A DNA stretch of 64,000 bases from Escherichia phage FL04. Positions within the stretch are counted from its first letter, which is position 1. The number at the start of each line of letters is the position of its first letter. The stretch lies in sequence record PP358550; one strand, 5' to 3'. The notes under the pieces are model-generated. The model was not told the origin of the DNA. It saw nothing but the letters and a program-made list of their open reading frames with translations, and ran no database searches. A program made the translations under genes and the position numbers. This document shows positions 2,608 through 46,950 of this stretch, one piece after another.

Positions 2608-3132
2608 GTGAATATGTCAGAATTTAATTCTTGTGCTGGTCTGGTTAACGAAAAAGATATTAACGCGGCTATCGCCGCATATCATCACGCTATTGCAGAA
2701 GGTAAAGATCCGTTTCAGGTGATGCTAGAAATGCAAACTGGTTTGCAGGTTGCATTATCAGAAAAATTTGATTGGGTCCCAAATCCAACTAAGCTAGAGA
2801 CTTGCGGTGAAATGCTGGATTGGATGCAGCGGATGGATGACGCTATCGCAGACGAAACACGAGAGCTTTACACATCGCTGGGTGGAATGTCCAATGGTAA
2901 AGATGCAAGTGCAATCTGGAAAATGTGGAAAAAGAACCACGGGGAAGCGCGAGCGCGTAAATTCTCTGAACTGTCACCGGAAGATCAGCTTGAAGTGAAA
3001 TTTGAATTTGTGGATGCGATCCACTTCATTCTGTCAAAGATGATCCCGCTGGGTATTGACGCTCAAGAACTCTTTATTCTGTACTATCTGAAAAATGCTG
3101 AAAACTTCGCCCGTCAAGAACGCGGCTACTAA
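2608..3132 (+). CDS. hypothetical protein, possibly all-alpha NTP-pyrophosphatase-like (candidate dCTPase gp56 analogue)
   Basis: 174 aa; acidic ExxxE / ExxD patterns (ETCGEMLDWMQRMDDAIADETRE, EDQLEVKFEFVD); T4 gp56 is recalled as a similar length, but that match is from memory and unverified. Confidence 0.35.
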   Translation: MNMSEFNSCAGLVNEKDINAAIAAYHHAIAEGKDPFQVMLEMQTGLQVALSEKFDWVPNPTKLETCGEMLDWMQRMDDAIADETRELYTSLGGMSNGKDASAIWKMWKKNHGEARARKFSELSPEDQLEVKFEFVDAIHFILSKMIPLGIDAQELFILYYLKNAENFARQERGY

Positions 3133-3139
3133 AAATTAG

Positions 3140-3168
3140 TTGACACTACTCTATAATGGTTTTATTAT
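3140..3168 (+). promoter_or_regulatory. sigma70-type early promoter (TTGACA-17-TATTAT)
   Basis: -35 TTGACA 3140-3145, -10 TATTAT 3163-3168; immediately followed by hairpin plus T-run. Confidence 0.5.
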
Positions 3169-3198
3169 GCCTCCCGTCGAAAGATTGGAGGCTTTTTT
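3169..3198 (+). terminator. hairpin plus T-run (terminator/attenuator) whose 3-prime arm contains the GGAGG Shine-Dalgarno of the next gene
   Basis: GCCTCC...GGAGGC stem followed by TTTTTTATT, 4 nt before ATG 3202. Confidence 0.55.
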
Positions 3199-3201
3199 AT
3201 T

Positions 3202-3705
3202 ATGCAATTTACACCAGAAGAACTTAACATCATTGATGAATTGATGAACTCTAAAGAAAATATCGATATGTCGATCCTTAATGGATTGATCGAAAAGACT
3301 GAACGGTTAGTGCATCATGAAGCCTTGTATCGCGGTGTGAGCAAAAGAGAAGGCCGTAAGCTGGATACCTTAATTGTAGGTGATTCTTTCGTTGTAGATC
3401 GTCCTATGAGCTTTACGCCACTGCAATCAACAGCAGAGGACTTTGCAACCGATGTTTATGCAACAGGAAAGATTATTGCAATAAAACCTACCAAGCCTTG
3501 CATGAATTATTACGAACATGCTATTGACCGAGTGGTGTCTAAAGAGTATGACAATCCGACTACTCGACTGTCTTTGTATGCTATGTTGGCAGATGAGCGC
3601 GAGTGCATATACAAGACAGGGACGACCATGATCCTTGATGAGATCGAGGAAGTTTACGCGTGTAATGGCGATCTGATAGAGATTTACAAATTTTCTTTAA
3701 TTTAA
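3202..3705 (+). CDS. putative ADP-ribosyltransferase (ModA/ModB-like)
   Basis: 167 aa; R (LYRGVS), S-x-T (MSFTPLQST) and E-x-E (ADERECI) motifs in the order expected for R-S-E type ARTs. Confidence 0.4.
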   Translation: MQFTPEELNIIDELMNSKENIDMSILNGLIEKTERLVHHEALYRGVSKREGRKLDTLIVGDSFVVDRPMSFTPLQSTAEDFATDVYATGKIIAIKPTKPCMNYYEHAIDRVVSKEYDNPTTRLSLYAMLADERECIYKTGTTMILDEIEEVYACNGDLIEIYKFSLI

Positions 3706-3708
3706 GTG

Positions 3709-3738
3709 TTGACAGCACAAACCAGATAGACAATAATA
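3709..3738 (+). promoter_or_regulatory. sigma70-type early promoter
   Basis: TTGACA 3709-3714, 17-nt spacer, AATAAT-like -10 at 3732-3738. Confidence 0.55.
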
Positions 3739-3766
3739 CACACATACCAACTAAGGAGAATCAATT

Positions 3767-4522
3767 ATGAAACTGTTTGCTTTTAAATCTAACGAAGAAT
3801 TGGCGCTGGTTGTTTTCCGGCTGAACTCTATCATGGCTGGCGCTTCACGTCGCAACAAAGACTTCTCTATGAGCTTAGTCACTGTTCGTAACATTTACCG
3901 TCAGACTCATTGTGTCTATTCAGGTGAGGCTTTCGGTGAAGGTGATGACGGACTCTCCTTAGAGCGCATTGATTGCAATCTGGGATATGTTGATGGCAAT
4001 GTAATTCCGGTTAAACTGAAATACAATTCTTTCCGTGGCAATCACACTATCGAATCTCTTAAAGAGATCCAAGAACTAGGAACTAACGGTAAACTTTCTG
4101 ATGATGAAATTGCCCTACGTGCGAAGTACATCGAGTGGATCGAACTTAACGAGAATCGCATCAAAAATCAGGAAATGGCAATCGAAGAAAAGAAATTAGC
4201 AATCGAGCGCCACAAAAAGCACAACGAACCGGAGAAAGCAGAGGCAGCCGAGCGAGCGATTAAAAATACTCTCTTCCGTATGGAAGAACGTTATCAGAAA
4301 ATTGCAGATCTCAAGCAAGCCCTTAGCGAAATCAACAAGAAAGAAGAAAAACTTAAGGCTATTGCAAACAATACCGAAATCGTGCTAAAATATACCAGCG
4401 TTTTGATTGAATCTCTTTCTAAGTATGAGAACTTAACGCCAGCACAAAAAGAACGCGTGAAATACGGGCTTCCGATTGATGCGTCGTGGATTGAATTGAT
4501 GAAAGCGAAGGTAGGTTTATAA
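3767..4522 (+). CDS. hypothetical protein with C-terminal coiled coil
   Basis: 251 aa; RBS AAGGAGA; N-terminal region has a degenerate HNH-like stretch (SLERIDCNLGYVDGNV) without His; C-terminal half is K/E-rich. Confidence 0.6.
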   Translation: MKLFAFKSNEELALVVFRLNSIMAGASRRNKDFSMSLVTVRNIYRQTHCVYSGEAFGEGDDGLSLERIDCNLGYVDGNVIPVKLKYNSFRGNHTIESLKEIQELGTNGKLSDDEIALRAKYIEWIELNENRIKNQEMAIEEKKLAIERHKKHNEPEKAEAAERAIKNTLFRMEERYQKIADLKQALSEINKKEEKLKAIANNTEIVLKYTSVLIESLSKYENLTPAQKERVKYGLPIDASWIELMKAKVGL

Positions 4523-8330: not shown

Positions 8331-10154
8331 ATGTCTGAATTTTTGCTGTTAGATGATCGCGCTCACTGTCTTAAGAGACCTTCAATGTACATCGGGTCAA
8401 CGACTTATGAATCACACAATCGTTTCCTATTTGGAAAATGGACCAAAGTTTCATACGTTCCTGGTCTAGTTAAAATTATTGATGAAATTATCGACAATTC
8501 TGTAGACGAGGCGATCCGCACTAATTTTGAGTACGCTAATGTTATTAGTGTGGATATAAAAGATAACATTGTGTCAGTAACAGATAATGGTCGCGGTATT
8601 CCGCAACATATTGTTACGACGCCAGAAGGGAAACAGATTCCACAACCAGTTGCTGCATGGACACGAGCTAAAGCAGGGTCTAACTTTGATGATACAAATC
8701 GTGTTACTATGGGTATGAATGGGATCGGAAGCGCGCTCACATCATTTTTCTCGTCCTGGTTTACTGGTGTGACGTGTGACGGAGAGAATGAACTGACCGT
8801 TCAATGTACCAATGGTGCAGAAAATATTAGCTGGTCATCTAAGCCGTCAAAACTGAAAGGAACTAAGGTTACGTTCTGCCCCGATTTCGATCATTTTGAA
8901 GGTATGATCATGTCACAAGAAATTTCAGATGTAATTTGTGACCGTATGTATTCCTTAAGTGTAATCTTTCCTAAGATCACGTTTAAGTTTAATGGCAAAA
9001 AGATAACCAGCAAATTCAAGGATTATGCTAAACTATACAATGATGATCCGTTTGTCATTGAAGATAAAAACTTTTCACTTGCCCTAGTTCCTGCGGTTGA
9101 AGGTGAAGGTTTTAAATCAGTATCATTTGCTAATGGTCTGTTTACCAAAAACGGGGGAACACACGTTGATTATGTGACAGATGATCTTTGTGAAGAGATT
9201 GTAAAACGAATCAAGAAAGAATATAAGGTTGATGTTACTAAAGCTGCGGTTAAGTCTGGATTGACCTGTATTCTTATTGTTCGTGAATTGCCAAACCTCC
9301 GTTTTGATTCACAGACAAAAGAACGATTGACTAATCCAACTGGTGATATCAAGCGTCATATTGATCTTGATTTTAAAAAACTGGCTAAAGTCATTGCGAA
9401 GAAAGAAAACATTATCATGCCTATTATTGCTGTAGTCCTGGCACGCAAAGAGGCAGCAGATAAAGCGGCAGCGACTAAGGCAGCAAAGGCAGCGAAACGG
9501 GCTAAGGTGGCAAAACACGTTAAAGCTAACCTTATTGGAACTGACGCAGAAACTACCCTGTTTTTGACGGAAGGTGATTCCGCGATCAACTATCTGATCT
9601 CTGTACGTGATCAAGATTTACATGGCGGTTTCCCGTTGCGAGGCAAAACTCTTACAACGTGGGAACAACCGGAGGCAAAGATCGTTAAGAACGCCGAAAT
9701 TTTTAACATCATGGCGATCACTGGCTTGCAATTTGGTGTTGATGCATTGGAAGTTATGCAATACAAAAATATTGCGATTATGACAGACGCTGATACTGAC
9801 GGGATTGGGTCTATTAAGCCTAGTCTGATCTCTTTCTTTGCACGTTGGCCTGAATTGTTCGAAGATGGACGAATCCGGTTTATCAAAACACCTATTATCA
9901 TTGCGGAACCAAAGAAAGGTGATGATGTTCGATGGTATTATGACCTAGAAGATTTTGAGAACGACCGAGATAATATCAAAGGTTATAGCATTCGATATAT
10001 CAAAGGGTTAGCATCGCTTACAGAATCAGATTATCATCGCGTGATCAACGATCCTGTAATGGAAATCATCACGTTACCGGAAAACTATAAAGAGCTATTC
10101 GATTTGCTCTATAGTGAAGATGCAGATCAGCGCAAAATTTGGATGCAATCATAA
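8331..10154 (+). CDS. 39: DNA topoisomerase II large subunit gp39 (unsplit, GyrB-like ATPase)
   Basis: 607 aa; Bergerat ATPase motifs (IDEIIDNSVDEAIR, DNGRGIP), Toprim region (LTEGDSA, MTDADTDG); length matches a fused gp39+gp60 as in T2-type phages. Confidence 0.93.
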   Translation: MSEFLLLDDRAHCLKRPSMYIGSTTYESHNRFLFGKWTKVSYVPGLVKIIDEIIDNSVDEAIRTNFEYANVISVDIKDNIVSVTDNGRGIPQHIVTTPEGKQIPQPVAAWTRAKAGSNFDDTNRVTMGMNGIGSALTSFFSSWFTGVTCDGENELTVQCTNGAENISWSSKPSKLKGTKVTFCPDFDHFEGMIMSQEISDVICDRMYSLSVIFPKITFKFNGKKITSKFKDYAKLYNDDPFVIEDKNFSLALVPAVEGEGFKSVSFANGLFTKNGGTHVDYVTDDLCEEIVKRIKKEYKVDVTKAAVKSGLTCILIVRELPNLRFDSQTKERLTNPTGDIKRHIDLDFKKLAKVIAKKENIIMPIIAVVLARKEAADKAAATKAAKAAKRAKVAKHVKANLIGTDAETTLFLTEGDSAINYLISVRDQDLHGGFPLRGKTLTTWEQPEAKIVKNAEIFNIMAITGLQFGVDALEVMQYKNIAIMTDADTDGIGSIKPSLISFFARWPELFEDGRIRFIKTPIIIAEPKKGDDVRWYYDLEDFENDRDNIKGYSIRYIKGLASLTESDYHRVINDPVMEIITLPENYKELFDLLYSEDADQRKIWMQS

Positions 10155-10157
10155 CAC

Positions 10158-10185
10158 TTGACATACAAGGGAGATTCTCTATAAT
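10158..10185 (+). promoter_or_regulatory. early promoter cassette with hairpin (PeSL-like)
   Basis: TTGACA 10158-10163, TATAAT 10180-10185; inverted repeat AGGGAGA/TCTCCCT brackets the -10. Confidence 0.6.
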
Positions 10186-10219
10186 GGGAGTCTCCCTTTT
10201 CTTTTATGAGGATTTAATA

Positions 10220-10519
10220 ATGAGCAAAAAGAATAACATGATGATGAGTATGGCAAAGTTCATGGAAGCAGACCTGATCAAAAATACAGTACAGCATGAA
10301 CGCCAGAGAGAAGCCGCAGTGATTGCAGAACAAGGTTTTCAGGTTATCCACAATCCACCTAAAGACACGGTTAAATCGAAATACAGAGACGATCTGAAAG
10401 ACCATGAAGTACGGGAACTGGTTAATGATCTGCGTGACATTGCCATCAAATATCATGGTTATCAGTGCTTACGAGAACTGATCGCAGAGCGAGTAATGGA
10501 TGCATTGAAAAAAGATTAA
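10220..10519 (+). CDS. hypothetical protein (99 aa)
   Basis: ATG 10220 with GAGGA upstream, downstream of promoter cassette. Confidence 0.55.
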   Translation: MSKKNNMMMSMAKFMEADLIKNTVQHERQREAAVIAEQGFQVIHNPPKDTVKSKYRDDLKDHEVRELVNDLRDIAIKYHGYQCLRELIAERVMDALKKD

Positions 10520-10526
10520 AAATCTG

Positions 10527-10555
10527 TTGACACTGGATCGGGGATATATCATAAT
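10527..10555 (+). promoter_or_regulatory. early promoter cassette with hairpin (PeSL-like)
   Basis: TTGACA-17-CATAAT; GGGGA/TCCCC inverted repeat spanning the -10. Confidence 0.6.
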
Positions 10556-10585
10556 GTCCCCATCGAAAACAAAAGGTTGACTTAT

Positions 10586-10780
10586 ATGAAACCGTTTAAG
10601 AATGAAGAAACTCAAAAATTTTGTGAAAAAATTGCAGAAATCTACTTGACAGGGAATAAGGAAAAAGCTAATATTATGTTCAAAGAGTCGGTTTCCATGA
10701 TGAAAGTAGCACGCTGGGAACTGATCGCAATGCAAGACCAAATTCGTTATCTAGTAACAAAGGAGAATCAAAATGCGTAA
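10586..10780 (+). CDS. hypothetical protein (64 aa)
   Basis: ATG 10586 downstream of promoter cassette. Confidence 0.5.
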   Translation: MKPFKNEETQKFCEKIAEIYLTGNKEKANIMFKESVSMMKVARWELIAMQDQIRYLVTKENQNA

Positions 10781-17555: not shown

Positions 17556-17565
17556 CTGACTATTA

Positions 17566-17592
17566 AGCCGATCCTTGTGGTCGGCTTTTTTA
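17566..17592 (+). terminator. rho-independent terminator
   Basis: AGCCGATC-CTTGT-GGTCGGCT hairpin plus TTTTTT; near-identical hairpin in opposite orientation at 28821-28853. Confidence 0.75.
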
Positions 17593-17605
17593 TTTGAAAA
17601 GTTGT

Positions 17606-17634
17606 TTGACTTCCATAATCCAGCATTGCATAAT
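17606..17634 (+). promoter_or_regulatory. sigma70-type early promoter
   Basis: TTGACT-17-CATAAT. Confidence 0.55.
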
Positions 17635-17665
17635 ACACACAGTGAAACAAAAAGGAGATTCAAAA

Positions 17666-17872
17666 ATGAAAGTACGTTGCATTGAAACCGATCACATCAA
17701 TTATAGCTTTGGTGTCGGGTGTGATTATGATGTTGATGTATTCACGGACAATAGCGGAAACACATTTGATGTAGTTCATGGTGACTATATTTGGTTTTAC
17801 TTTGACAAACAACAACTTACTGCAACCAAACGAAACGGTGATCCGGTAGCAAAATTTGAAATAATCGAATAA
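17666..17872 (+). CDS. hypothetical small protein (68 aa); paralog family with 47020 and frameshifted 44474
   Basis: AAGGAGA-N7-ATG; MKVRC...FGVG..YD... KFEIIE pattern shared with 47020..47238. Confidence 0.6.
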   Translation: MKVRCIETDHINYSFGVGCDYDVDVFTDNSGNTFDVVHGDYIWFYFDKQQLTATKRNGDPVAKFEIIE

Positions 17873-17878
17873 AATCTA

Positions 17879-17913
17879 TTGACACTGAATAATGGGAGTA
17901 GTAATATACTCCC
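17879..17913 (+). promoter_or_regulatory. PeSL-type early promoter (hairpin GGGAGTA-N6-TACTCCC overlapping -10)
   Basis: TTGACA 17879-17884, 17-nt spacer, TAATAT 17902-17907 inside hairpin. Confidence 0.65.
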
Positions 17914-17938
17914 ATTCCAAACAAAAGGAGAATCAAAG

Positions 17939-18211
17939 ATGAGCAACGAAAACAGCAAAGTGTTAGCAATTGCAAATAAAGTAGGTTACTGGAAATGCTG
18001 GGATGATATGGAGAAATTAGGCGGTCGCTATCTCGATAACTTAGAGTTGCATTATTGCCAAGCGCGTAATGCAGAAGTTGCTGGAGTAGCAATTGAAGAT
18101 ATCCCGTCTAAGGTCTTCGGATTCTCTAAAGATGATACTCTAGAATATGTTTTCAAGGCTGTTATGGATCAAGCATGGGAAGACGCAGAGACACGCGCTC
18201 TTGATTGGTGA
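17939..18211 (+). CDS. hypothetical protein (90 aa)
   Basis: AAGGAGAATCAAAGATG initiation region. Confidence 0.6.
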   Translation: MSNENSKVLAIANKVGYWKCWDDMEKLGGRYLDNLELHYCQARNAEVAGVAIEDIPSKVFGFSKDDTLEYVFKAVMDQAWEDAETRALDW

Positions 18212-18215
18212 TAAT

Positions 18216-18386
18216 ATGAACTGGTATAAAATTTGGAAAAATCAGGTGGAGGCTTATCTAGGGTATAAGCCCACCGACAAAGAATTACTTGATGCAATGT
18301 ATGAAGACGGACTAAATCCGAAAGTAGCCGCGCAAGAATACGCGGAATGGGTGAAGGTCGAAGATAACCTAAAGAGGAAACTATGA
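18216..18386 (+). CDS. hypothetical small protein (56 aa)
   Basis: ATG 18216 just after upstream stop. Confidence 0.45.
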   Translation: MNWYKIWKNQVEAYLGYKPTDKELLDAMYEDGLNPKVAAQEYAEWVKVEDNLKRKL

Positions 18387-18607
18387 AGAAAATGATTGCG
18401 ATTGCTTTGTTGGCGAGCGCATGTACTGTAAATGCTAACACCGCAGCGATGGTCGCGGCTGTAACTGCCGCAAATGCTTCCGTTATGGCATCGCAAGAGG
18501 CAGCACGCCAGCAAGCACAACAAGAAGCCAAGCGAAAAGCACATGAGGCGACGAAAAATTTTCACGAAAATAACAAAAAACTAGTTGACGCCAAAGGTCA
18601 TCGGTAG
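18383..18607 (+). CDS. hypothetical secreted protein (74 aa)
   Basis: Signal-peptide-like N-terminus MKKMIAIALLASACTVNA; Ala/Gln-rich mature part. Confidence 0.55.
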   Translation: MKKMIAIALLASACTVNANTAAMVAAVTAANASVMASQEAARQQAQQEAKRKAHEATKNFHENNKKLVDAKGHR

Positions 18608-18613
18608 TATTAT
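18585..18613 (+). promoter_or_regulatory. PeSL-type early promoter (degenerate hairpin)
   Basis: TTGACG-17-TATTAT; imperfect GGTAGTA/TACTCCC repeat. Confidence 0.55.
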
Positions 18614-18647
18614 ACTCCCATACCGAAACGAACTGGAGGAAATAAAA

Positions 18648-18890
18648 ATGGTTAAAGTGAATGTTATCGAAGTTGCACTGTACGACGCTGGGATCTTCCT
18701 GAATGAAAAAGAAGCTGCCGTGCTCGATGAACTGAAAACTGTTTTTGTTCCTGTAGTCGAAGACGATGAAGCAATCAAAATCGCTTCTCGTAAACTGTCC
18801 CGCGAAGCATTCGACATGATTGATCCGGTTTTCAAAGTTATGCACGAATGCGCGGTTATGATGACCGAAGAAGAAGCGAAAAATTTCTAA
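18648..18890 (+). CDS. hypothetical protein (80 aa)
   Basis: GGAGGAAATAAAAATG initiation region. Confidence 0.6.
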   Translation: MVKVNVIEVALYDAGIFLNEKEAAVLDELKTVFVPVVEDDEAIKIASRKLSREAFDMIDPVFKVMHECAVMMTEEEAKNF

Positions 18891-18897
18891 AAACTAG

Positions 18898-18932
18898 TTG
18901 ACGTAAAGATAAGGGAGTAGTAATATACTCCC
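18898..18932 (+). promoter_or_regulatory. PeSL-type early promoter
   Basis: TTGACG-17-TAATAT with GGGAGTA/TACTCCC hairpin. Confidence 0.65.
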
Positions 18933-18955
18933 ATACCAAACGAAAGGAGAATCAC

Positions 18956-19168
18956 ATGAAATCTATTGAGCAAGTAGTGACTGAATTTATGAGCTACGAA
19001 GGAAACCGCATCTTTGGACGTTCTCAAGTTCGCGAGATCGTAGAAGAAGTTGCGGGAGAGTTTGCGGAATCTGGTCACGTTATCACGCAAGAACGTAAAG
19101 AAGAAGCAGTAAGCCAGATCATGGCTATGCAGAAAATGCGTATTAATGCACGAGCGGGTAAAAATTAA
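18956..19168 (+). CDS. hypothetical protein (70 aa)
   Basis: AAGGAGAATCACATG initiation region. Confidence 0.6.
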   Translation: MKSIEQVVTEFMSYEGNRIFGRSQVREIVEEVAGEFAESGHVITQERKEEAVSQIMAMQKMRINARAGKN

Positions 19169-19178
19169 AAAATAGTTG

Positions 19179-19207
19179 TTGACAGGGGATCGCCGATCCC
19201 CTATAAT
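19179..19207 (+). promoter_or_regulatory. PeSL-type early promoter with palindromic 17-nt spacer
   Basis: TTGACA-GGGGATCGCCGATCCCC-TATAAT. Confidence 0.7.
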
Positions 19208-19238
19208 GAACTCATCAAGACAACGAAGGAGAATCAAA

Positions 19239-19394
19239 ATGAAACATACTCACAAATTAATGGTTAAATTTGAAGGCGCTAAGGGATATGAACGTTACGG
19301 TGTATTCTTCTCTGAGGATGATGCATGGGATGCTGGTTTGGCGACGTTCGCCGAGCACAACAACATTGAAGACTTTACTGTAGAAGAAATTTAA
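19239..19394 (+). CDS. hypothetical small protein (51 aa)
   Basis: AAGGAGAATCAAAATG initiation region. Confidence 0.5.
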   Translation: MKHTHKLMVKFEGAKGYERYGVFFSEDDAWDAGLATFAEHNNIEDFTVEEI

Positions 19395-19401
19395 AAAGTA
19401 T

Positions 19402-19436
19402 TTGACATCGGATTAAGGGAGTAGTAAGATACTCCC
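19402..19436 (+). promoter_or_regulatory. PeSL-type early promoter
   Basis: TTGACA-17-TAAGAT with GGGAGTA/TACTCCC hairpin. Confidence 0.65.
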
Positions 19437-19464
19437 ATCAAGACAAAACACTGAGGAATATATT

Positions 19465-20211
19465 ATGAAAAACATTATCGCTGCTATCGTTCTTTCTGCT
19501 ACTGCTTTCGGTGCTAACGCTGCGTCCTTTGATTGCGCTAAAGCTACTACCAAATCAGAGAAGTTTATTTGTGCTAATGAGTCTATCTCCGCACTGGACT
19601 CTAAACTTCATGAGGTGTATGTTAAGGCTGTTAAGATTGATCCGTCTCTGAAACAAGAGCAACGAAACTGGAATAAAACTGTTCGTGATACAATGATCAA
19701 TATCGGGCAGATTCAGCCACTGGAGGCTGTATATAACGCTCAAATCCAAAACTTGATGAATGTATTACCTAAAGAAGAAAGCGATTCAGAGACTTCTGCG
19801 AAGGTTGAAGAAGAACAACCGAAACAGGAAGCAAAAGTGGTAGAAGAACCGAAGGTCGAAACTTTTACCTATCAATGCACCGTTCGTTATGAGTGGAGTA
19901 TGAAAGATGGAATTTCCACAAAAATTAAAGAGGCTCCACTGTATGCAAAATATGGAAACCAGCCAGGGGATCTTAAAGTAACCATTAAAAATGGGAAGAT
20001 GGTTGATTTTGTATACATTGATGAATACAACGTACACAAAGCAAACGTACAAGAAACCGTTATGACTAAAGGCGGGTTTTATAAGAATGTTGGCAAGAAA
20101 GATCTATATGAATACTCCGTTTTCGAACCAAACGACGGAACTATTCGATTTGAAAAACGTCATCCTACATTCGGTGGCGCAATTGATGTAGATCAATACG
20201 TTTGCAAGTAA
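19465..20211 (+). CDS. secreted DUF1311/LprI-like domain protein
   Basis: 248 aa; signal peptide MKNIIAAIVLSATAFGANA; FDCAKATTKSEKFICANESISALDSKLHEVY...QRNWNK pattern typical of DUF1311 (LprI-like); acidic linker; C-terminal Cys-containing domain. Confidence 0.6.
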   Translation: MKNIIAAIVLSATAFGANAASFDCAKATTKSEKFICANESISALDSKLHEVYVKAVKIDPSLKQEQRNWNKTVRDTMINIGQIQPLEAVYNAQIQNLMNVLPKEESDSETSAKVEEEQPKQEAKVVEEPKVETFTYQCTVRYEWSMKDGISTKIKEAPLYAKYGNQPGDLKVTIKNGKMVDFVYIDEYNVHKANVQETVMTKGGFYKNVGKKDLYEYSVFEPNDGTIRFEKRHPTFGGAIDVDQYVCK

Positions 20212-36137: not shown

Positions 36138-36818
36138 ATGATCAGAAACCGTCTTCCTCCAGATCCAGATATGCGAATTAATGCTAAATCTGTGTATATG
36201 TTATATTGCATGATGAAAGCTCACATGAACGGGCGTTATGATTGCGTAAAATATAATTGGAGGATGCGGTTGTCTGATGCCGCATTCAATAAACGCAGAG
36301 ATAAGTATTATTTCGCAAAATTAGCGGAAAAGTACAATCTAAGAGAATTATACTTCCTATTCCTAAGCAATCTGGTAGCTAATACCGATGCATGGGTAGG
36401 TGAAATCACCGATGTTGACGCATACGGGTTTTACATGGAGTACATCGGTAAAATCACTGATGCGGCAACACGATTTGACGATGACATTAAAAGTCTTGTA
36501 TACTTCTCAGAGAAACGCGGGGTTACTCTTAAAGAGCTAATTACATATAATCCCGCAACCGAAACTAGCGGTATCTTTAAACTACTGCAAAATCGGATTA
36601 TATCGTTTGAGTCGTTTATGTTGTTAGATAGCTTTCTAAATATAATCGACGAACACGACAAGGTAGCCAAAGACTTGATTTGGCAAACTTATAGTGTTAA
36701 AATGAAGGCGTACAAGAAACTACTTGTTATTGACGTCGCAAAAGCAAGAGCATTATTTGTTAAAGTAGTTAAAGAGTGTAAAGAAATATCTCAATTAAAA
36801 GCCGAAACAAATAGTTGA
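36138..36818 (+). CDS. 59: helicase loader gp59
   Basis: 226 aa; KSVYMLYCMMKAHMNGRYD.VKYNW.MR.SDAA..KRRDKY.F.KL.EKY.L.EL, LSNLVAN.DAW.G.I.D.DA matching T4 gp59. Confidence 0.92.
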   Translation: MIRNRLPPDPDMRINAKSVYMLYCMMKAHMNGRYDCVKYNWRMRLSDAAFNKRRDKYYFAKLAEKYNLRELYFLFLSNLVANTDAWVGEITDVDAYGFYMEYIGKITDAATRFDDDIKSLVYFSEKRGVTLKELITYNPATETSGIFKLLQNRIISFESFMLLDSFLNIIDEHDKVAKDLIWQTYSVKMKAYKKLLVIDVAKARALFVKVVKECKEISQLKAETNS

Positions 36819-36842
36819 CAAGTAAATTTAAATCTGTATAAT
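36815..36842 (+). promoter_or_regulatory. sigma70-type promoter upstream of gene 32
   Basis: TTGACA 36815-36820, 16-nt spacer, TATAAT 36837-36842. Confidence 0.55.
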
Positions 36843-36872
36843 AGTCTAGTAAATTAATCAAAAGAAGGAATA

Positions 36873-37847
36873 GTGAATATGTTTAAACGCCAAGATTCTT
36901 CCAAACTGCAAGCTCAACTGGCCGCACTGAAAGGTGGCAACGGTTTCTCCAAAGAAGATCCGAAAGAGTGGAAGATTAAGACTGATGCAGCAGGTAACGG
37001 TGAAGCCCTGATTCGCTTCCTGCCGTCTAAGACAGAAGACGGTCTGCCGATTGTGAAACTGGTAAACCATTCCTTCAAAGTTAATGGCAAATGGTATTGG
37101 GAAAACTGCTCCAGCACCCACGGTGATTTTGATTCTTGCCCTGTGTGCAAATATATTAACGAAAAAGACTTGTACAATACCGATAAAACCGAATGGCAAC
37201 TGATTAAGCGTAAAGCGTCTTACTACGCAAACATTCTGGTACTGAAAGATCCTCAAGCACCAGAAAATGAAGGTAAGGTATTCAAATTCCGCTTCGGTCA
37301 GAAAATTTATGATAAGATCGTTGCAATGGTGAACGTGAATACCGATATGGGCGAAGTTCCGGTAGATGTAACTTGTGTGTTCTCTGGTGCTAACTTCCTC
37401 CTGAAAGCTAAGAAGGTTGATAAACACCAGAACTATGATGATTCTCGTTTCATGCAGCAATCACAGCTTCCGAAAATTGAAGACGAAGCATATCAGAAAT
37501 ATCTGATGGAAAACATGGTTGATCTGAGTGAGATTGTAGCGCCTAGCCAGTTTAAACCGTTCGATGAACTGGAAACCAAATTTAAGAAAACTATGGGCGT
37601 TTCTATGGTAGCTGGTGCTGCGGCTTCCAGTGCTGCGGCAGCGATTAACAGCCAGCTTGACGATTTTGACGCACAGATGAATGCATTCGATTCTGGTATG
37701 ACCGCAGCTAGCACTGTAGTTGGTATTAACGCAGCTAGCACGGCGTTAGATTCTTCCGCTGATGACCTGATGGCATCTCTGGACCTGGGTGGCGGTACTT
37801 CCTCCGCTTCTGATCTGGATGATCTTGACGCTCTGTTAGGGATGTAA
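36873..37847 (+). CDS. 32: single-stranded DNA-binding protein gp32
   Basis: 324 aa; MFKR...EWK.K.D.AGNG.A.IRFLPSK, NHSFK.NGKWY.E.CSSTHGD.DSCPVC.YI...[19 protein letters not shown], acidic C-terminus (DLDDLDALL). Confidence 0.95.
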
Positions 37848-37858
37848 TGAATTTTACA

Positions 37859-37882
37859 GCCTCCCTCCGGGGAGGCTTTTTT
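37859..37882 (+). terminator. rho-independent terminator after gene 32
   Basis: GCCTCCC-TCCG-GGGAGGC hairpin plus TTTTTT. Confidence 0.75.
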
Positions 37883-37908
37883 ATTGCCTAAAATTTTATG
37901 AAAAGGTG

Positions 37909-37936
37909 TTGACATGCTTATGTGGTAATGTATAAT
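37909..37936 (+). promoter_or_regulatory. early promoter cassette (TTGACA-16-TATAAT, type TGTATAATGCACA)
   Basis: Followed by conserved CATCGAAACAA-GGAGGA initiation region; same cassette repeated at 39170 and 39553. Confidence 0.6.
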
Positions 37937-37966
37937 GCACACATCGAAACAATGGAGGATAAAAAT

Positions 37967-39181
37967 ATGTTAGTACGTCAAGCGCATGAAATTGAATGGA
38001 CTAAGGAGAAACATAATTGTAGAGCGAAAAGCCCAACAGATTTTTATGGTAAAATTTTAGAAATATGTAAAACAGAAAATTTAGTTTTTGTCGGCTTTGT
38101 TGGGGAATGGGAAGGAAACAAAACAAAAATAAAACTTATCTGCGAACATGGTCATGAATGGATATGTTCGATAGATAAATTTGTAAGTAAAGGAACAAGA
38201 TGTTCTCATAAACAATGTAAAGGTAAACGAATATCTAAAAAATTGTCTATATCCGAAACGGAATACAAAACGAGAATTTTAGAAATATGTGAAACTGAAA
38301 ATCTAATTTTCTTAGGTTTTGTTGGTGAATGGAAAGGGTGTGATACTAAAATTCGCATAAAATGCAAATACGGTCATGAATGGGATGTATCTATATATAG
38401 CTTCACAAAAATGAATACCAGATGCCCTACATGCGCAGGAAAGAACAAGACAAAAGACGAATACAAAACGAGAATTTTAGAAATATGTGAAACTGAAAAT
38501 CTAATTTTCTTAGGTTTTGTTGGTGAATGGAAAGGATGCCGCACAAAAATAAAACTTAGCTGCAAACACGGTCATGAATGGATATCTTCCATATTACATT
38601 TTGTGTATCAAAATACTCGCTGTCCTGTATGTGTTGGTAGATTGTCTATCGACGATAGAATGATACAGATTAATCAAGTTTGCAATTCTTTAGGTTATGT
38701 AATAATTAAGATCCACGAAGAATGGAAAAACACAGAAACTAAAATTGATGTTAAATGTTTATGTGATTATATATGGACAACAACAATACATAGAGTCATA
38801 CATGGGACTACAGGTTGCAGAAAGTGTGCTACATATGGATACAATACAAAAAAATCGGGGACTCTTTATATACAGAAATTAACCAACGATGATTCCTTTG
38901 TTGGTGTGAAATTTGGAATAACAAACAGAGACACGAATGAACGAATGAAAAACCAATCATCAAAGTCTAAATTCGACCATGAGATCTTTTATGAATTGAC
39001 TTTACAAGACGGTCAAAAGATCTTAGAATTAGAGAACAAGATCAAGGAAGCGATGAAAGGTAAAACTTCCTATATCTCAAAAGAAGATATGCCGGATGGC
39101 TGGACCGAAACAGTAGCGCCGTCTGAATTGAGCACTATCATGTATATCGTAAAAACTTTTGAAAAAGAGTTGACAGCGTAA
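37967..39181 (+). CDS. T5orf172 (GIY-YIG-like) domain protein with four N-terminal zinc-ribbon repeats; putative nuclease/homing endonuclease-like
   Basis: 404 aa; four ~70-aa repeats each with C..HGHEW ... RC..C; C-terminal GTLYIQKL...VGVKFGITNRDTNERMK pattern. Confidence 0.65.
   Translation: MLVRQAHEIEWTKEKHNCRAKSPTDFYGKILEICKTENLVFVGFVGEWEGNKTKIKLICEHGHEWICSIDKFVSKGTRCSHKQCKGKRISKKLSISETEYKTRILEICETENLIFLGFVGEWKGCDTKIRIKCKYGHEWDVSIYSFTKMNTRCPTCAGKNKTKDEYKTRILEICETENLIFLGFVGEWKGCRTKIKLSCKHGHEWISSILHFVYQNTRCPVCVGRLSIDDRMIQINQVCNSLGYVIIKIHEEWKNTETKIDVKCLCDYIWTTTIHRVIHGTTGCRKCATYGYNTKKSGTLYIQKLTNDDSFVGVKFGITNRDTNERMKNQSSKSKFDHEIFYELTLQDGQKILELENKIKEAMKGKTSYISKEDMPDGWTETVAPSELSTIMYIVKTFEKELTA
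38261..38547 (+). repeat. intragenic tandem direct repeat (two near-identical ~78-bp copies 210 bp apart, 38261-38337 and 38471-38547)
   Basis: GAATACAAAACGAGAATTTTAGAAATATGTGAAACTGAAAATCTAATTTTCTTAGGTTTTGTTGGTGAATGGAAAGG present twice; more diverged copy upstream. Confidence 0.8.
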
Positions 39182-39197
39182 CGCAATAGTGTATAAT
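39170..39197 (+). promoter_or_regulatory. early promoter cassette (TTGACA-16-TATAAT)
   Basis: Overlaps 3-prime end of upstream CDS; followed by CATATCGAAACAACGGAGGA. Confidence 0.6.
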
Positions 39198-39226
39198 GCA
39201 CATATCGAAACAACGGAGGATTAACA

Positions 39227-39556
39227 ATGTTTTTGAATGCCACCCTTTCCCAGAAAAGTGATAAAATCGAACTTCTGTATGTCATTGCTGATGTGGACGT
39301 ACAACGAAGAAATATAGATTTAAAAATTCACAAATATTATACTATGAGCGAATATCATGAAATAGAGATCCCACATAGTGTGTATCCTGCATTATTGTTA
39401 GGAAAAGGAAATCTAAGTGAATATTCTTTGAAAGTCATCAAAGATTCTAAATCAATGCTTGCTCATATGGAAAAAGATTTTCTTGATGAAGTTTCCGCGC
39501 TAGTTATTAAACTGAAAGAAGAAACAGCACCGCTTTTCATGGAACAAAAAGGTTGA
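39227..39556 (+). CDS. hypothetical protein (109 aa)
   Basis: GGAGGA RBS. Confidence 0.55.
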   Translation: MFLNATLSQKSDKIELLYVIADVDVQRRNIDLKIHKYYTMSEYHEIEIPHSVYPALLLGKGNLSEYSLKVIKDSKSMLAHMEKDFLDEVSALVIKLKEETAPLFMEQKG

Positions 39557-39580
39557 CGCCGAACACAGATGATGTATAAT
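39553..39580 (+). promoter_or_regulatory. early promoter cassette (TTGACG-16-TATAAT)
   Basis: Followed by ACATCGAAACAAAGAGAGGA initiation region. Confidence 0.6.
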
Positions 39581-39611
39581 ACAAACATCGAAACAAAGAG
39601 AGGACTATATT

Positions 39612-39941
39612 ATGTGGACAGTAGAAAAAATCGTTGACGAATCAACCGAAATTGTCTCGTGTGGCACTATTGAAGAATGTCTTAAAGCCGCTAACCGTGA
39701 ATGTATTACGGTTTATGAATCCCGTCGCGGTGATGGTAGCTTGATTCAAAGTGATTATCGTTACACCGCACATAAAATTGTATTCCGTTTCTGGGAAAAC
39801 GGTGTCAATGTCGGTGTCAGCTTACTGAAAATGTGGCGTGATTATTCCGAACGCTACTATGTTTCTCCTGATGATGGTAATGAATTTAAGACAGCAATCA
39901 CAGAAGAAAATGTAAACGAAAACTATTTCAAACTGATTTGA
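39612..39941 (+). CDS. hypothetical protein (109 aa)
   Basis: AGAGAGGA RBS. Confidence 0.55.
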   Translation: MWTVEKIVDESTEIVSCGTIEECLKAANRECITVYESRRGDGSLIQSDYRYTAHKIVFRFWENGVNVGVSLLKMWRDYSERYYVSPDDGNEFKTAITEENVNENYFKLI

Positions 39942-44405: not shown

Positions 44406-44413
44406 AATAAGTG

Positions 44414-44442
44414 TTGACGCGGGGAGAAATCCCCGCTATAAT
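44414..44442 (+). promoter_or_regulatory. PeSL-type early promoter with hairpin spacer
   Basis: TTGACG-GCGGGGA-GAAA-TCCCCGC-TATAAT. Confidence 0.65.
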
Positions 44443-44473
44443 ACAACCATCAAAAACAAGTGAGGATTTTATT

Positions 44474-44642
44474 ATGACCAAATTAAAATGTGTTGCTGTA
44501 GATTTTTGAACTAGCTGATAGCTTTGTTGTTGGTGATGAATATGATGCTCGACATGATGGGACTTGCTACTACGTCGAGGATGAATATGGTGTAGAATGG
44601 GCGATTCTTCCTGATGATAAATGTTTTGAGGTTGTCGGATAA
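44474..44642 (+). pseudogene. small ORF disrupted by +1 frameshift at a T5 run (or programmed frameshift / sequence error)
   Basis: MTKLKCVAVDF-stop at 44507; continuing in +1 frame from 44508 gives ELADSFVVGDEYDARHDGTCYYVEDEYGVEWAILPDDKCFEVVG; joined product resembles paralogs at 17666 and 47020. Confidence 0.45.
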
Positions 44643-46631: not shown

Positions 46632-46643
46632 TGTTTGTTCAAA

Positions 46644-46667
46644 GTCGCCCATAGTGGCGACTTTTTT
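46644..46667 (+). terminator. rho-independent terminator
   Basis: GTCGCC-CATAGT-GGCGAC hairpin plus TTTTTT. Confidence 0.7.
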
Positions 46668-46678
46668 GTTATTGGGTG

Positions 46679-46707
46679 TTGACAATCTGATCTTGCCATA
46701 GCATAAT
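46679..46707 (+). promoter_or_regulatory. sigma70-type early promoter
   Basis: TTGACA-17-CATAAT followed by ACGCACATCGAAACGGAGGA. Confidence 0.6.
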
Positions 46708-46731
46708 ACGCACATCGAAACGGAGGAACAT

Positions 46732-46950
46732 ATGGAAACAGAAGAACAAGTCATTGCACATTTTCATCGTAAAAAGATGAAACTTAGAATTGAAAAGCAG
46801 TACATCAATCACTACATTGACCGAGTTCACTTAACAAGTACACCTTACCTATTCCGGTTGATAAACCCTAGAAAACGGTGGGAGAAGTTGGATAGAAACA
46901 CAAAAATAATTGATAAGCTCACCCAGTGGTGGAATGAATACAACAAGTAA
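46732..46950 (+). CDS. hypothetical protein (72 aa)
   Basis: GGAGGA RBS. Confidence 0.55.
   Translation: METEEQVIAHFHRKKMKLRIEKQYINHYIDRVHLTSTPYLFRLINPRKRWEKLDRNTKIIDKLTQWWNEYNK

What the first reader, a model, noticed from the sequence alone, without database searches (positions are those of the whole stretch)
17606..19436. Dense array of promoter-early-stem-loop (PeSL-like) cassettes driving single small ORFs
Across the window at least 26 sigma70-type promoters with a TTGAC(A/G/T) -35 element and a 16-18 nt spacer were found; in many the spacer or the -10 hexamer sits inside a short perfect inverted repeat. Two hairpin families recur: GGGAGTA-N6-TACTCCC overlapping the -10 (17879, 18898, 19402, 46958, 47239, 47465) and GGGGA(T/G)...(A/C)TCCCC filling the spacer (19179, 55322, 55716, 56880, 57125, 59434). 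Each cassette is followed by a conserved CGAAAC...GGAGAATCAAA-ATG initiation region and a 50-130 aa ORF. Similar cassettes have, as far as I recall, been described in RB49-type phages as mobile regulatory modules; here they concentrate in 17.6-19.5 kb, 46.7-47.5 kb and 55.3-59.7 kb.
Basis: partly seen in the sequence, partly recalled or inferred. Interest (0 to 1): 0.55.

Follow-up and report, generated by a model that had tools for sequence, protein, structure and literature searches.

The report
Known PeSL promoter cassettes, RB49-type phage
The window comes from an RB49-like (Krischvirus) coliphage, and the flagged elements are its already-published "PeSL" cassettes: strong early promoters with a built-in stem-loop and a shared leader, which also act as recombination patches for swapping small genes. 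The finding is real but ordinary for this phage group.

Summary
A profile scan finds 24 strong cassette matches, all on the + strand; with regex and fold finds I list 27 cassettes.

The window is a Krischvirus, 95-99% identical to RB49, Phi1, KMB43 and kaaroe. This is the genus in which PeSLs (promoter-early stem-loops) were described and tested (Arbiol et al. 2010, PMC2839356; Comeau et al. 2014, PMC4122927). Cassette 55322 is identical from -35 to ATG to RB49 PeSL211/210, whose stem-loop was shown to terminate transcription. Cassette 56880 matches PeSL192/191 and closely resembles the promoter-tested PeSL206/205.

Comparison with eight relatives shows that 7 of 13 indel junctions lie inside cassettes, with 18-241 bp of shared sequence at the joints. 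This is the published modular-shuffling signature.

Two of the six in the flagged interval lack the in-promoter hairpin. The hairpins are not canonical U-tract terminators.

One small new inference: the conserved GGAGAAUCAAA matches the RegB/S1 cleavage consensus at 10 of 11 positions.

Verdict: already known; low interest.

The parts
17565..17668 (+). Cassette 17606. Canonical terminator hairpin 17565-17587 plus T-run, -35 TTGACT 17606-17611, -10 CATAAT 17629-17634, SD GGAGATTCAA 17654-17663, ATG 17666. This is the PeSL subclass with the stem-loop upstream of -35. It drives one 68-aa ORF (17666-17872).
17855..17941 (+). Cassette 17879. -35 TTGACA 17879, stem-loop GGGAGTA-GTAATA-TACTCCC 17894-17913 overlapping -10 TAATAT 17902-17907, SD GGAGAATCAAA 17927-17937, ATG 17939. 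It drives three ORFs (90, 56 and 74 aa).
18559..18650 (+). Cassette 18585. TTGACG-N17-TATTAT. The right arm TACTCCC is kept but the left arm is lost (TCGGTAG). The upstream ORF (18383-18607) reads into the promoter. The sequence is identical in 5 genomes. It drives one 80-aa ORF.
18876..18958 (+). Cassette 18898. Stem-loop 18913-18932 overlapping -10 TAATAT, ATG 18956. It drives one 70-aa ORF.
19155..19241 (+). Cassette 19179. TTGACA, stem-loop GGGGATC-GCC-GATCCCC (19185-19201) filling the spacer, TATAAT, SD 19228-19238, ATG 19239. It drives one 51-aa ORF. The whole module is absent from KMB43 and GEC-3S and is replaced by a different ORF in kaaroe.
19379..19467 (+). Cassette 19402. Stem-loop 19417-19436 overlapping -10 TAAGAT, ATG 19465. 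It heads a 248-aa ORF and about 9 further genes.
44390..44476 (+). Cassette 44414. Spacer stem-loop GCGGGGA-GAAA-TCCCCGC (about 44419-44436), ATG 44474. KMB43 carries an 855-bp methyltransferase module here, flanked by a 43-bp cassette duplication.
46641..46734 (+). Cassette 46679. Canonical terminator 46641-46664 upstream, TTGACA-N17-CATAAT. It drives one 72-aa ORF.
46939..47022 (+). Cassette 46958. Stem-loop GGGGGTA...TACTCCC (one G.T pair) 46973-46992 overlapping -10. It drives one 72-aa ORF.
47215..47308 (+). Cassette 47239. Compensated stem GGGGGTA...TACCCCC 47254-47273. It drives one 49-aa ORF. This module (47317|47456) is absent from JSE, Brandy and UPWr_E1, with a 90-bp junction overlap.
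47440..47529 (+). Cassette 47465. Stem-loop 47480-47499. It heads a 13-gene operon that includes denA, rnlA, pseT, cd, gene 31 and the DNA ligase gene.
55301..55398 (+). Cassette 55322. Spacer stem-loop GGGGAT-CACGT-ATCCCC 55328-55344. It is identical from -35 to ATG to RB49 PeSL211/210, whose stem-loop was the one tested as a terminator. It drives a 103-aa ORF (the ORF210 homolog).
   Evidence: PMC2839356
55691..55782 (+). Cassette 55716. Spacer stem-loop GGGGAG-GTTAAA-CTCCCC 55722-55739 (stem covaries T-A to G-C). It drives two ORFs.
56272..56356 (+). Cassette 56277. TTGACA-N17-TAGTAT with a stem-loop downstream of -10 (56316-56334), ATG 56354. It drives a 172-aa ORF.
56867..56945 (+). Cassette 56880. 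Spacer stem-loop 56886-56903. From the stem-loop onward it equals RB49 PeSL192/191. It is the recombinant joint of a 3.0-4.1 kb deletion (RB49 ORF204 to ORF192) relative to all six compared genomes.
57103..57196 (+). Cassette 57125. Spacer stem-loop GGGGAG-GATAA-CTCCCC 57131-57147. It heads six ORFs.
59413..59499 (+). Cassette 59434. Spacer stem-loop GGGGATC-ATC-GATCCCC 59440-59456. It drives one 59-aa ORF. Most alignments to relatives end at 59501, the ATG of this cassette.
59661..59750 (+). Cassette 59683. TTGACA-N17-CATAAT with a third stem variant, GGGTGTAT...ATACACCC (59696-59717), overlapping -10. It drives a 70-aa ORF followed by alt.
62079..62160 (+). Cassette 62097. TTGACT-N17-TATACT with a long stem-loop (about 62104-62135, -18.9 kcal/mol) overlapping -10.
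3127..3204 (+). Cassette 3140. The promoter is followed immediately by a canonical terminator hairpin (3169-3192) plus T6, overlapping the predicted start of its own transcript.
3704..3769 (+). Cassette 3709. A hairpin-less promoter with the shared leader and GGAGAATCAA. It heads a 9-gene operon.
10140..10222 (+). Cassette 10158. TTGACA-N16-TATAAT with a 13-bp stem (about 10167-10198, -21.3 kcal/mol) spanning -10.
10508..10588 (+). Cassette 10527. Stem-loop GGGGATAT...ATGTCCCC (one U.G pair; about 10540-10561) overlapping -10 CATAAT. It heads a 12-gene operon that includes the topoisomerase genes.
36793..39614 (+). Four early promoters with the same leader but no in-promoter hairpin: 36815, 37909 (canonical terminator 37858-37877 upstream), 39170 and 39553.

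Best explanation
These are PeSLs (promoter-early stem-loops), the composite regulatory cassettes of RB49-type T4-like phages. Each has five parts, in order:
(1) An A-rich stretch that usually holds the stop codon of the upstream gene.
(2) A near-consensus sigma70 promoter, TTGACA-N17-TATAAT, read by unmodified host RNA polymerase immediately after infection.
(3) In most copies, a G-rich/C-rich stem-loop placed in the spacer or across the -10 box.
(4) A conserved, A-rich leader of 28-38 nt.
(5) The site GGAGAAUCAAA-AUG.

Shown here or in the literature: the sequence anatomy, its significance against chance, covariation of the stems, orthology to cassettes whose promoter and terminator activities were measured, and the location of indel junctions inside cassettes.

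Inferred:
(a) The stem ends about 1 nt before the predicted +1 (the conserved C-rich -3..-1 followed by 'AT'). The cassette's own transcript therefore lacks the hairpin, and only read-through RNA from upstream carries it. The hairpin would attenuate or terminate upstream transcription, or stabilise the upstream 3' end, without affecting its own promoter's product.
(b) The roughly 95 nt of near-identical sequence repeated in one orientation gives the phage's recombination system homology patches. Cassette-plus-ORF modules are thereby deleted, inserted, replaced and duplicated.
(c) The conserved GGAGAAUCAAA may double as a RegB/S1 endoribonuclease site that shuts off cassette-driven early genes. 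I put this at about 30%.
For: Identity:
- The window is 95-99% identical to Krischvirus genomes.
- PeSLs are defined in RB49 and Phi1 as TTGACA-N17-TATAAT plus a Gn-loop-Cn stem-loop, with an AT-rich upstream region, an SD and a start codon, about 52 per genome, in five positional subclasses.
- Window cassette 55322 equals RB49 PeSL211/210 base for base from -35 to ATG. Cassette 56880 equals PeSL192/191.
- lacZ assays for promoter and terminator activity are reported in PMC2839356.
- RB49 early transcripts have been 5'-mapped and agree with this consensus (PMC1524935).

Anatomy:
- Searches show chance expectation of about 0.
- One search gives the alignment.
- One search gives 24 profile hits, all on the + strand.
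- One search gives the hairpin folding z-scores.

Structure:
- Compensatory stem variants are seen.
- In the formal count, 89% of cells are paired, 3 pairs change on both sides, and 0 of 500 shuffles reach the covariation score.
- The only non-Watson-Crick pairs are G.T on the + strand.

Shuffling:
- Junctions at 17669|17906, 19178-90|19387-93, 44401-43, 47317|47456, 55293|55302, 55367-411|55690 and 56871-57111 all lie in cassettes, with 18-241 bp shared at the joint.
- 7 of 13 junctions fall in cassettes that cover 7.3% of the sequence (p = 1.3e-5). In the test requiring both ends to lie at cassette boundaries, p = 0.004.
- ORF205 and ORF191 are 91% identical paralogs, showing that a module was duplicated.

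RegB idea:
- GGAGRAYNRAA occurs 10 times against 1.26 expected, 9 of them in cassettes.
- A GGAG SD precedes 20 of 27 cassette-headed genes against 9 of 53 internal genes (p = 1e-6).
- The consensus GGAGRAYARAA is from PMC1702504. RB49 encodes a diverged RegB.
Against: - The in-promoter hairpins have no U-tract and are not called intrinsic terminators on the + strand. Termination rests on one published reporter experiment with one stem-loop.
- Against a null of 'any gene boundary' (35% of boundaries carry a cassette), the excess of junctions is not significant (p = 0.12).
- Five or six junctions lie outside cassettes: a homing endonuclease, ATGA-coupled ORFs, and a divergent patch inside a gene.
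- The 51-aa module is found at only one place per genome in 35 records (its genomic context was not checked), so I saw no sign of relocation.
- Hairpin-less copies (18585, 3709, 36815, 39170, 39553) show that the stem-loop is dispensable for a working cassette.
- For RegB: position 8 is C, which is disfavoured for T4 RegB. The cassettes are paralogous copies, so the SD statistics are not independent.
- No transcript data exist for this phage.
Confidence: 0.9

Rival explanations
1. The elements are ordinary strong early promoters plus ordinary ribosome-binding sites. They resemble one another only because all are selected toward the same consensus. The hairpins are incidental, and the elements play no special role in gene shuffling; indels simply fall at gene boundaries.
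For: - The same leader and SD also occur at hairpin-less promoters of core operons.
- Against the gene-boundary null, the junction excess is not significant (p = 0.12).
- The 51-aa module is found at only one place per genome.
Against: - Similarity extends through positions with no known promoter or RBS role: the A-rich flank, the ACACACAT(AC)CGAAAC leader and the stem sequences. Identity between non-orthologous copies is 75-95% over 70-108 nt.
- The stems covary.
- Junctions carry 18-241 bp of cassette sequence shared by both flanks, and the both-ends test gives p = 0.004.
- Recombinant mini-circles have been detected experimentally in RB49 and Phi1 (PMC2839356).
Confidence: 0.06
2. The inverted repeats act as double-stranded DNA sites for a dimeric phage protein rather than as RNA hairpins. 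That protein would be either a repressor that shuts off early promoters or a dedicated recombination protein.
For: - The repeats sit exactly where RNA polymerase binds, in the spacer or across -10.
- They lack U-tracts.
- The GGGG...CCCC core is conserved.
- The 2010 authors themselves speculate about a DNA-binding protein.
Against: - Stem sequence changes while pairing is kept: GGGAGTA, GGGGGTA, GGGTGTAT and GGGGATAT; GGGGAT against GGGGAG.
- Loop length varies from 3 to 6 nt, which changes half-site spacing.
- Mismatches are G.T on the + strand only (only 3 independent cases, so this is weak).
- The stem-loop alone reduced lacZ in uninfected E. coli, without phage proteins.
- Junction 17669|17906 joins a cassette with no in-promoter hairpin to a hairpin cassette, and it lies downstream of the stem.
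Confidence: 0.04

Closest known systems
PeSLs of coliphages RB49, Phi1 and JSE (Arbiol et al. 2010, Genome Biol Evol 2:140, PMC2839356)
   Same: Everything tested matches:
- The host genus.
- The TTGACA-N17-TATAAT promoter.
- The Gn-loop-Cn stem-loop in the spacer or over the -10 box.
- The A-rich upstream region holding the upstream stop codon.
- The SD plus ATG at the 3' end.
- The location in hyperplastic regions ahead of ORFans.
- Indels bounded by the cassettes.
- Two window cassettes are sequence-identical or nearly identical to named RB49 PeSLs.
   Different: Nothing of kind. This genome has its own combination of modules:
- It has the 17666-17872 module that RB49 lacks.
- It lacks ORF211 and the ORF204-ORF192 block.
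- It has a 59-aa ORF at 58732-58911 that is absent from the six compared genomes.
PeSLs and PmSLs of T4/PST and KVP40/nt-1 (Comeau et al. 2014, PMC4122927)
   Same: The composite promoter plus stem-loop plus SD architecture, and the association with differential ORFs in hyperplastic regions.
   Different: Those have other promoter consensuses (TTTACW..TAYWAT; TTGYVH..TAWWAT) and other stems (AGNA..TCNT; A3-4G3..C3T3-4). Some are built on MotA middle promoters. The window has the RB49-type near-perfect sigma70 form.
Integron gene cassettes (attC) and lambdoid 'morons'
   Same: Small promoter- or terminator-equipped, single-gene units that are added to and lost from defined genome regions. Like attC, the stems conserve structure more than sequence.
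   Different: - No integrase is known.
- Crossovers fall at different places within the cassette and carry tens of bp of homology, which indicates homologous rather than site-specific recombination.
- Unlike morons, the flanking regulatory sequence is itself the recombination substrate, and the modules are co-oriented with their neighbours.
T4 RegB/S1 endoribonuclease target sites (GGAGRAYARAA; Durand et al. 2006, PMC1702504)
   Same: An 11-nt single-stranded site that starts with the GGAG of an early-gene Shine-Dalgarno and is followed by an A-rich tract. The cassette consensus GGAGAAUCAAA matches 10 of 11 positions and is concentrated on promoter-proximal early genes.
   Different: Position 8 is C instead of A. 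Cleavage was not tested, and RB49's RegB is diverged. This is a functional analogy offered as a hypothesis, not a membership claim.

Membership tests
PeSL (RB49/Phi1 type) | Near-consensus sigma70 early promoter, TTGACA-N17-TATAAT | tested here: met
   Scores are 9-12 of 12 matches, spacers are 16-18 nt, there are 30 hits against 3.1 expected, and all are co-oriented with the genes.
PeSL (RB49/Phi1 type) | G-run/C-run stem-loop between -35 and -10, overlapping -10, or just upstream or downstream of the promoter | tested here: met
   Seven are in the spacer, about 10 lie over -10, three have an upstream terminator, and two have a downstream stem. Five of 27 cassettes have none.
PeSL (RB49/Phi1 type) | AT-rich region upstream of -35 containing the upstream gene's stop codon; SD and start codon of the downstream gene at the 3' end | tested here: met
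   One search shows the AAAAAGTTG flank with TAA/TAG. Searches show the SD and an ATG 28-48 nt after -10.
PeSL (RB49/Phi1 type) | Sequence conservation over about 100 bp among copies within one genome | tested here: met
   alignment A1; 75-95% identity between non-orthologous copies; profile E-values from 1e-10 to 1e-19.
PeSL (RB49/Phi1 type) | Preferential location in hyperplastic regions, upstream of ORFans | tested here: met
   Searches show the neighbours annotated as hypothetical proteins. Searches give only unknown-function PHROGs. The cassettes cluster at 17.6-19.5, 46.7-47.5 and 55.3-59.7 kb. None lies in the minus-strand late block at 22.4-33.8 kb.
PeSL (RB49/Phi1 type) | Indels and replacements between close relatives bounded by the cassettes | tested here: met
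   Seven of 13 junctions lie in cassettes with 18-241 bp of overlap. The excess is significant against random positions and in the both-ends test, but not against a simple gene-boundary null.
PeSL (RB49/Phi1 type) | Measured promoter and terminator/attenuator activity | not testable with these tools
   Indirect only. Cassette 55322 is identical to PeSL211/210, whose stem-loop was terminator-tested. Cassette 56880 is close to the promoter-tested PeSL206/205 (PMC2839356).
PeSL (RB49/Phi1 type) | Formation of excised PeSL mini-circles | not testable with these tools
   This needs outward-facing PCR on phage DNA. It is reported for RB49 and Phi1.
Canonical intrinsic (rho-independent) terminator | GC-rich hairpin followed immediately by a U-tract on the transcribed strand | tested here: not met
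   None of the spacer or -10 stem-loops is called on the + strand; their tails are TATAAT or ATACC. Only the upstream hairpins at 17565, 37858 and 46641 and the one at 3169 qualify.
Integron attC-type site-specific cassette | Recombination at a fixed point in a folded site by a dedicated integrase | tested here: not met
   The junction overlaps lie in different parts of the cassette: -10 to ATG, the A-rich/-35 region, or the whole cassette. One junction joins a cassette with no in-promoter hairpin to a hairpin cassette. No integrase is known in RB49 or Phi1.
RegB/S1 cleavage site | Single-stranded GGAG followed by an A-rich 7-mer (GGAGRAYARAA), cleaved between G and A in early mRNAs | tested here: inconclusive
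   Ten of 11 positions match, with C at position 8. The motif is enriched at cassette-headed genes. Cleavage was not tested.

The most novel reading that the evidence does not exclude
The stem-loops are not only transcriptional insulators. They would also be structure-specific recombination sites, folded on the + strand like integron attC sites and recognised by an unidentified phage protein. That would make PeSL-plus-ORF units an active, integron-like mobile cassette system in T4-type phages.

The covariation (structure kept while sequence changes) and the + strand-only G.T wobbles are compatible with this reading. The variable crossover positions, the tens of bp of homology at the junctions, and a junction involving a cassette with no in-promoter hairpin argue against it.
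Probability: 0.05. Interest if true: 0.7.

Novelty: already known. Interest (0 to 1): 0.15.

Why it matters
PeSLs are one of the few concrete molecular explanations for how large lytic phages swap accessory genes, in effect Botstein's "linker sequences". This window adds fresh, clean examples:
- Modules of 236, 205 and 138 bp gained or lost between cassette pairs.
- An 855-bp methyltransferase module inserted at a cassette in a relative.
- A 3-4 kb deletion between paralogous cassette-ORF units.

It does not change the picture. The only modestly new points concern the design logic of the cassette rather than its existence. First, the stem ends right at the predicted transcription start, so only read-through RNA carries it. 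Second, the conserved GGAGAAUCAAA resembles a RegB/S1 site. If that holds, each shuffled gene would arrive with a promoter, an insulator and an early shut-off signal.

Tried and rejected
- A degenerate leader pattern (CATMSMRAAC) was badly designed and gave no useful enrichment. The alignment and the profile scan replaced it.
- One alignment of all stems overlapping -10 put the 7-bp and 8-bp variants in different registers, so no single structure line could be scored. Only the spacer class was counted formally.
- The test of G.U against A.C strand asymmetry yields only 3 independent wobbles against 0. That is suggestive, not significant.
- I looked for true relocation of a module with tblastn of the 51-aa ORF. 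It gave one place per genome in 35 records, and I did not check their genomic context. So I saw presence/absence but no sign of relocation.
- The RB49 transcript-mapping paper (Desplats 2002, PMC135041) is not held, so it is cited only through PMC1524935.
- An IMG/VR scan for the exact spacer-hairpin pattern gave multiple hits only in two Krischvirus-sized contigs. Single hits in other contigs were not followed up.
- Chance, MITE/REP-type repeats and canonical terminators were considered and rejected. The grounds were the shuffle controls, the single orientation without target duplications, and the missing U-tracts.

Full report

Yes. Reading 17400-19700 shows six + strand promoters of the form TTGAC-N17-(T/C)AnnnT at 17606, 17879, 18585, 18898, 19179 and 19402. 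The consensus scan also picks them up.

The two hairpin families are far beyond chance:
- GGGAGTA-N6-TACTCCC (up to 1 mismatch) occurs 5 times against 0.00 expected.
- TTGAC-N18-TAnnnT occurs 30 times against 3.1 expected, 29 of them on the + strand.
- With 16-18 nt spacers there are 55 hits on the + strand and 4 on the - strand.

Thirteen hairpins fold at -10 to -15 kcal/mol with z-scores of -2.1 to -4.5. Five hairpin-less promoters with the same leader fold no better than shuffles.

An alignment of 19 cassettes shows a conserved unit of about 95 nt. It reads: A-rich flank with the upstream stop codon, TTGACA, spacer, TATAAT, ACACACAT(AC)CGAAAC, GGAGAATCAAA, ATG.

A profile built from that alignment finds 24 hits with E below 1e-3, all on the + strand. 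Regex and fold searches add 3140, 10158, 56277 and 62097.

**2. Corrections to the observation**

- Cassette 47239 carries GGGGGTA...TACCCCC, and 46958 carries the G.T intermediate GGGGGTA...TACTCCC. Neither is the exact GGGAGTA stem.
- Within the flagged interval, 17606 has no in-promoter hairpin but sits 19 nt after a canonical terminator at 17565-17587.
- Cassette 18585 has lost its left arm, and that state is identical in GEC-3S, kaaroe, KMB43 and RB49.
- 'Each cassette drives a single 50-130 aa ORF' holds for 12 of 27 cassettes. The others head operons of 2-13 genes, including core genes such as topoisomerase, denA-rnlA-pseT-cd-31-30 and alt. First ORFs range from 49 to 404 aa.

**3. What genome is this?**

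The region is 94-99% identical to 58 phage records, all Krischvirus (RB49-like Straboviridae) infecting E. coli or Shigella. The 44-64 kb part gives the same picture and is strongly mosaic: only 8 of 96 records cover at least 80% of it.

The gene order matches RB49 and Phi1: 52, the tail-fibre block on the minus strand, then rnh, dsbA, 33, 59, 32, frd, td, nrdAB, denA, rnlA, pseT, cd, 31, 30, the ORFan region, alt and 54.

**4. What is known?**

PeSLs (promoter-early stem-loops) were discovered in exactly this phage group (Arbiol et al. 2010, PMC2839356). The published description covers:
- About 52 PeSLs per genome, with sigma70-consensus promoters.
- An AT-rich upstream region.
- A polyG/polyC stem-loop in one of five positions relative to the promoter.
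- An SD plus start codon at the 3' end.
- Preferential location in hyperplastic regions ahead of ORFans.
- Promoter activity of about 13,000 Miller units for PeSL206/205.
- Termination by the PeSL211/210 stem-loop, comparable with rrnB T1.
- Association with 10 of 14 differential ORFans.
- PCR-detected mini-circles.

Comeau et al. 2014 (PMC4122927) extended the concept to other T4-like clades and restated the RB49-type signature: Gn-loop-Cn with TTGACA-N17-TATAAT. RB49 early transcripts have been 5'-mapped, and the consensus agrees (PMC1524935, citing Desplats 2002).

**5. Membership by orthology**

The window's 55-60 kb cluster is the RB49/Phi1 ORF212-ORF186 hyperplastic region.
- Cassette 55322 is identical from -35 to ATG to RB49 PeSL211/210.
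- Cassette 56880 equals PeSL192/191 and is close to PeSL206/205.
- Cassettes 59434 and 55716 are close to PeSL210/209.

Every sequence-level defining feature of the family is met. Activity and mini-circles cannot be tested in silico.

**6. Are the stems structures?**

Stem sequence varies while pairing is kept. The variants are GGGAGTA/TACTCCC, GGGGGTA/TACCCCC, GGGTGTAT/ATACACCC and GGGGATAT/ATATCCCC, and GGGGAT/ATCCCC against GGGGAG/CTCCCC. Loops vary freely in sequence and in length, from 3 to 6 nt.

On 12 distinct spacer hairpins, 89% of cells pair, 3 of 7 pairs show changes on both sides, and 0 of 500 shuffles reach the covariation score. Slid registers score lower.

The only non-Watson-Crick pairs are G.T on the + strand: three independent cases against no A.C. 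This fits a + strand RNA structure, or a single-stranded DNA structure, but the sample is too small to prove it.

**7. How do they work?**

Promoter function follows from the consensus and from orthology.

The in-promoter stems end at about -1 relative to the predicted start, the conserved C-rich -3..-1 followed by 'AT'. I therefore infer that a cassette's own RNA lacks the hairpin and that only read-through RNA from upstream contains it. This explains how a stem can sit inside a promoter and still insulate.

These stems lack U-tracts and are not called intrinsic terminators on the + strand. The 'terminator' label rests on a single published reporter test, and attenuation or 3'-end stabilisation are equally possible.

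Four cassettes instead use a canonical terminator. It lies just upstream at 17565, 37858 and 46641, and it overlaps the cassette's own start at 3169. Five cassettes have no stem, so the stem is dispensable.

**8. Do they mark module boundaries?**

Collinear alignment chains were built against ten loci from eight genomes and gave 13-14 distinct junctions.

Inside cassettes:
- 17669|17906: a 236-bp module, absent from RB49, GEC-3S and kaaroe, with a 37-bp overlap from -10 to ATG.
- 19178-90|19387-93: a 205-bp module, absent from KMB43 and GEC-3S, and replaced by another ORF in kaaroe.
- 44401-43: KMB43 has an 855-bp cytosine-methyltransferase module flanked by a 43-bp duplicated cassette.
- 47317|47456: a 138-bp module, absent from JSE, Brandy and UPWr_E1, with a 90-bp overlap.
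- 55293|55302: ORF211 is present in RB49, JSE and KMB43.
- 55367-411|55690: the ORF210 module is absent from Brandy and UPWr_E1.
- 56871-57111: the window lacks 3.0-4.1 kb, from ORF204 to ORF192. The crossover lies in the A-rich/-35 part, between the paralogous PeSL206/205-ORF205 and PeSL192/191-ORF191 units, which are 91% identical at protein level.

Outside cassettes:
- A divergent patch inside the 248-aa gene.
- A JSE homing endonuclease.
- Three ORFs joined by translational-coupling overlaps.

Statistics:
- 7 of 13 junctions fall in cassettes that cover 7.3% of the sequence (p = 1.3e-5).
- The both-ends-at-cassette-boundaries test gives p = 0.004.
- Against the simpler null of any gene boundary, p = 0.12.

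The decisive evidence is therefore the shared sequence at the joints and the published mini-circles, not the counts alone.

The 51-aa module occurs at only one place per genome in 35 records, and I did not check their genomic context. So I saw gain, loss, replacement and local duplication, but no sign of long-range relocation.

**9. A small new inference**

The cassette SD region GGAGAAUCAAA matches the 11-nt RegB/S1 endoribonuclease target GGAGRAYARAA at 10 of 11 positions (PMC1702504).
- GGAGRAYNRAA occurs 10 times against 1.26 expected, 9 of them in cassettes.
- GGAG SDs precede 20 of 27 cassette-headed genes against 9 of 53 internal genes (p = 1e-6).
- RB49 encodes a diverged RegB that cleaves its own SD (PMC3014915).
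- Neither PeSL paper mentions RegB.

Caveats: position 8 is C, which is disfavoured for T4 RegB, and the cassettes are paralogs, so the counts are not independent. I rate this at about 30%.

**10. Verdict**

The elements are already-known PeSLs in a member of the genus where they were defined. The small ORFs they drive have no recognisable function. Interest is low. The value of this follow-up lies in the clean junction examples and the two design-logic inferences.

Noticed in passing
window 44474-44509 (T-run at about 44503-44507): The homolog of RB49 ORF233, the first gene after cassette 44414, carries one extra T in a homopolymer run compared with RB49, Phi1 and Brandy. This truncates it to 11 codons. 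It is either a sequencing error or a recent pseudogene.
   Followed up: partly
window 58732-58911: A 59-aa ORF absent from all six compared genomes is inserted between the ORF188 and ORF187 homologs. It is joined through overlapping ATGA stop/start junctions with only 4 bp of shared sequence, and no cassette is involved. This points to a second, PeSL-independent way of adding genes.
   Followed up: partly
window 19465-20211: The 248-aa protein driven by cassette 19402 has a signal-peptide-like N-terminus and a weak Pfam LprI (lysozyme inhibitor) match: 24.1 bits against a cut-off of 22.
   Followed up: no
L008 (KMB43) 8166-9017, at window cassette 44414: KMB43 carries a DNA-cytosine methyltransferase gene inserted at this cassette, flanked by a 43-bp cassette duplication. 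This is an example of a cassette delivering a gene with a likely anti-restriction role.
   Followed up: partly
L007 (JSE) 9712-10359, against window 44643-45004: A homing endonuclease gene in JSE replaces the ORF232/ORF231 homologs upstream of nrdB. This is an indel not mediated by cassettes.
   Followed up: no
window 18932-18913 and 59717-59696 (minus strand): Read on the minus strand, stem-loops overlapping the -10 box are followed by a T-rich tail, and these two score as terminator-like. They could also stop antisense transcription.
   Followed up: no
window 3140-3204: The promoter is followed directly by a canonical terminator (3169-3192 plus T6) that overlaps the predicted start of its own transcript. 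It should therefore terminate only read-through RNA. This is the clearest illustration of the insulator logic.
   Followed up: partly
L017, L018, L022 (IMG/VR contigs of 357-366 kb): Single exact matches to the spacer-hairpin promoter pattern occur in three jumbo-phage-sized contigs outside Krischvirus. Whether they are chance matches or PeSL-like elements is not known.
   Followed up: no
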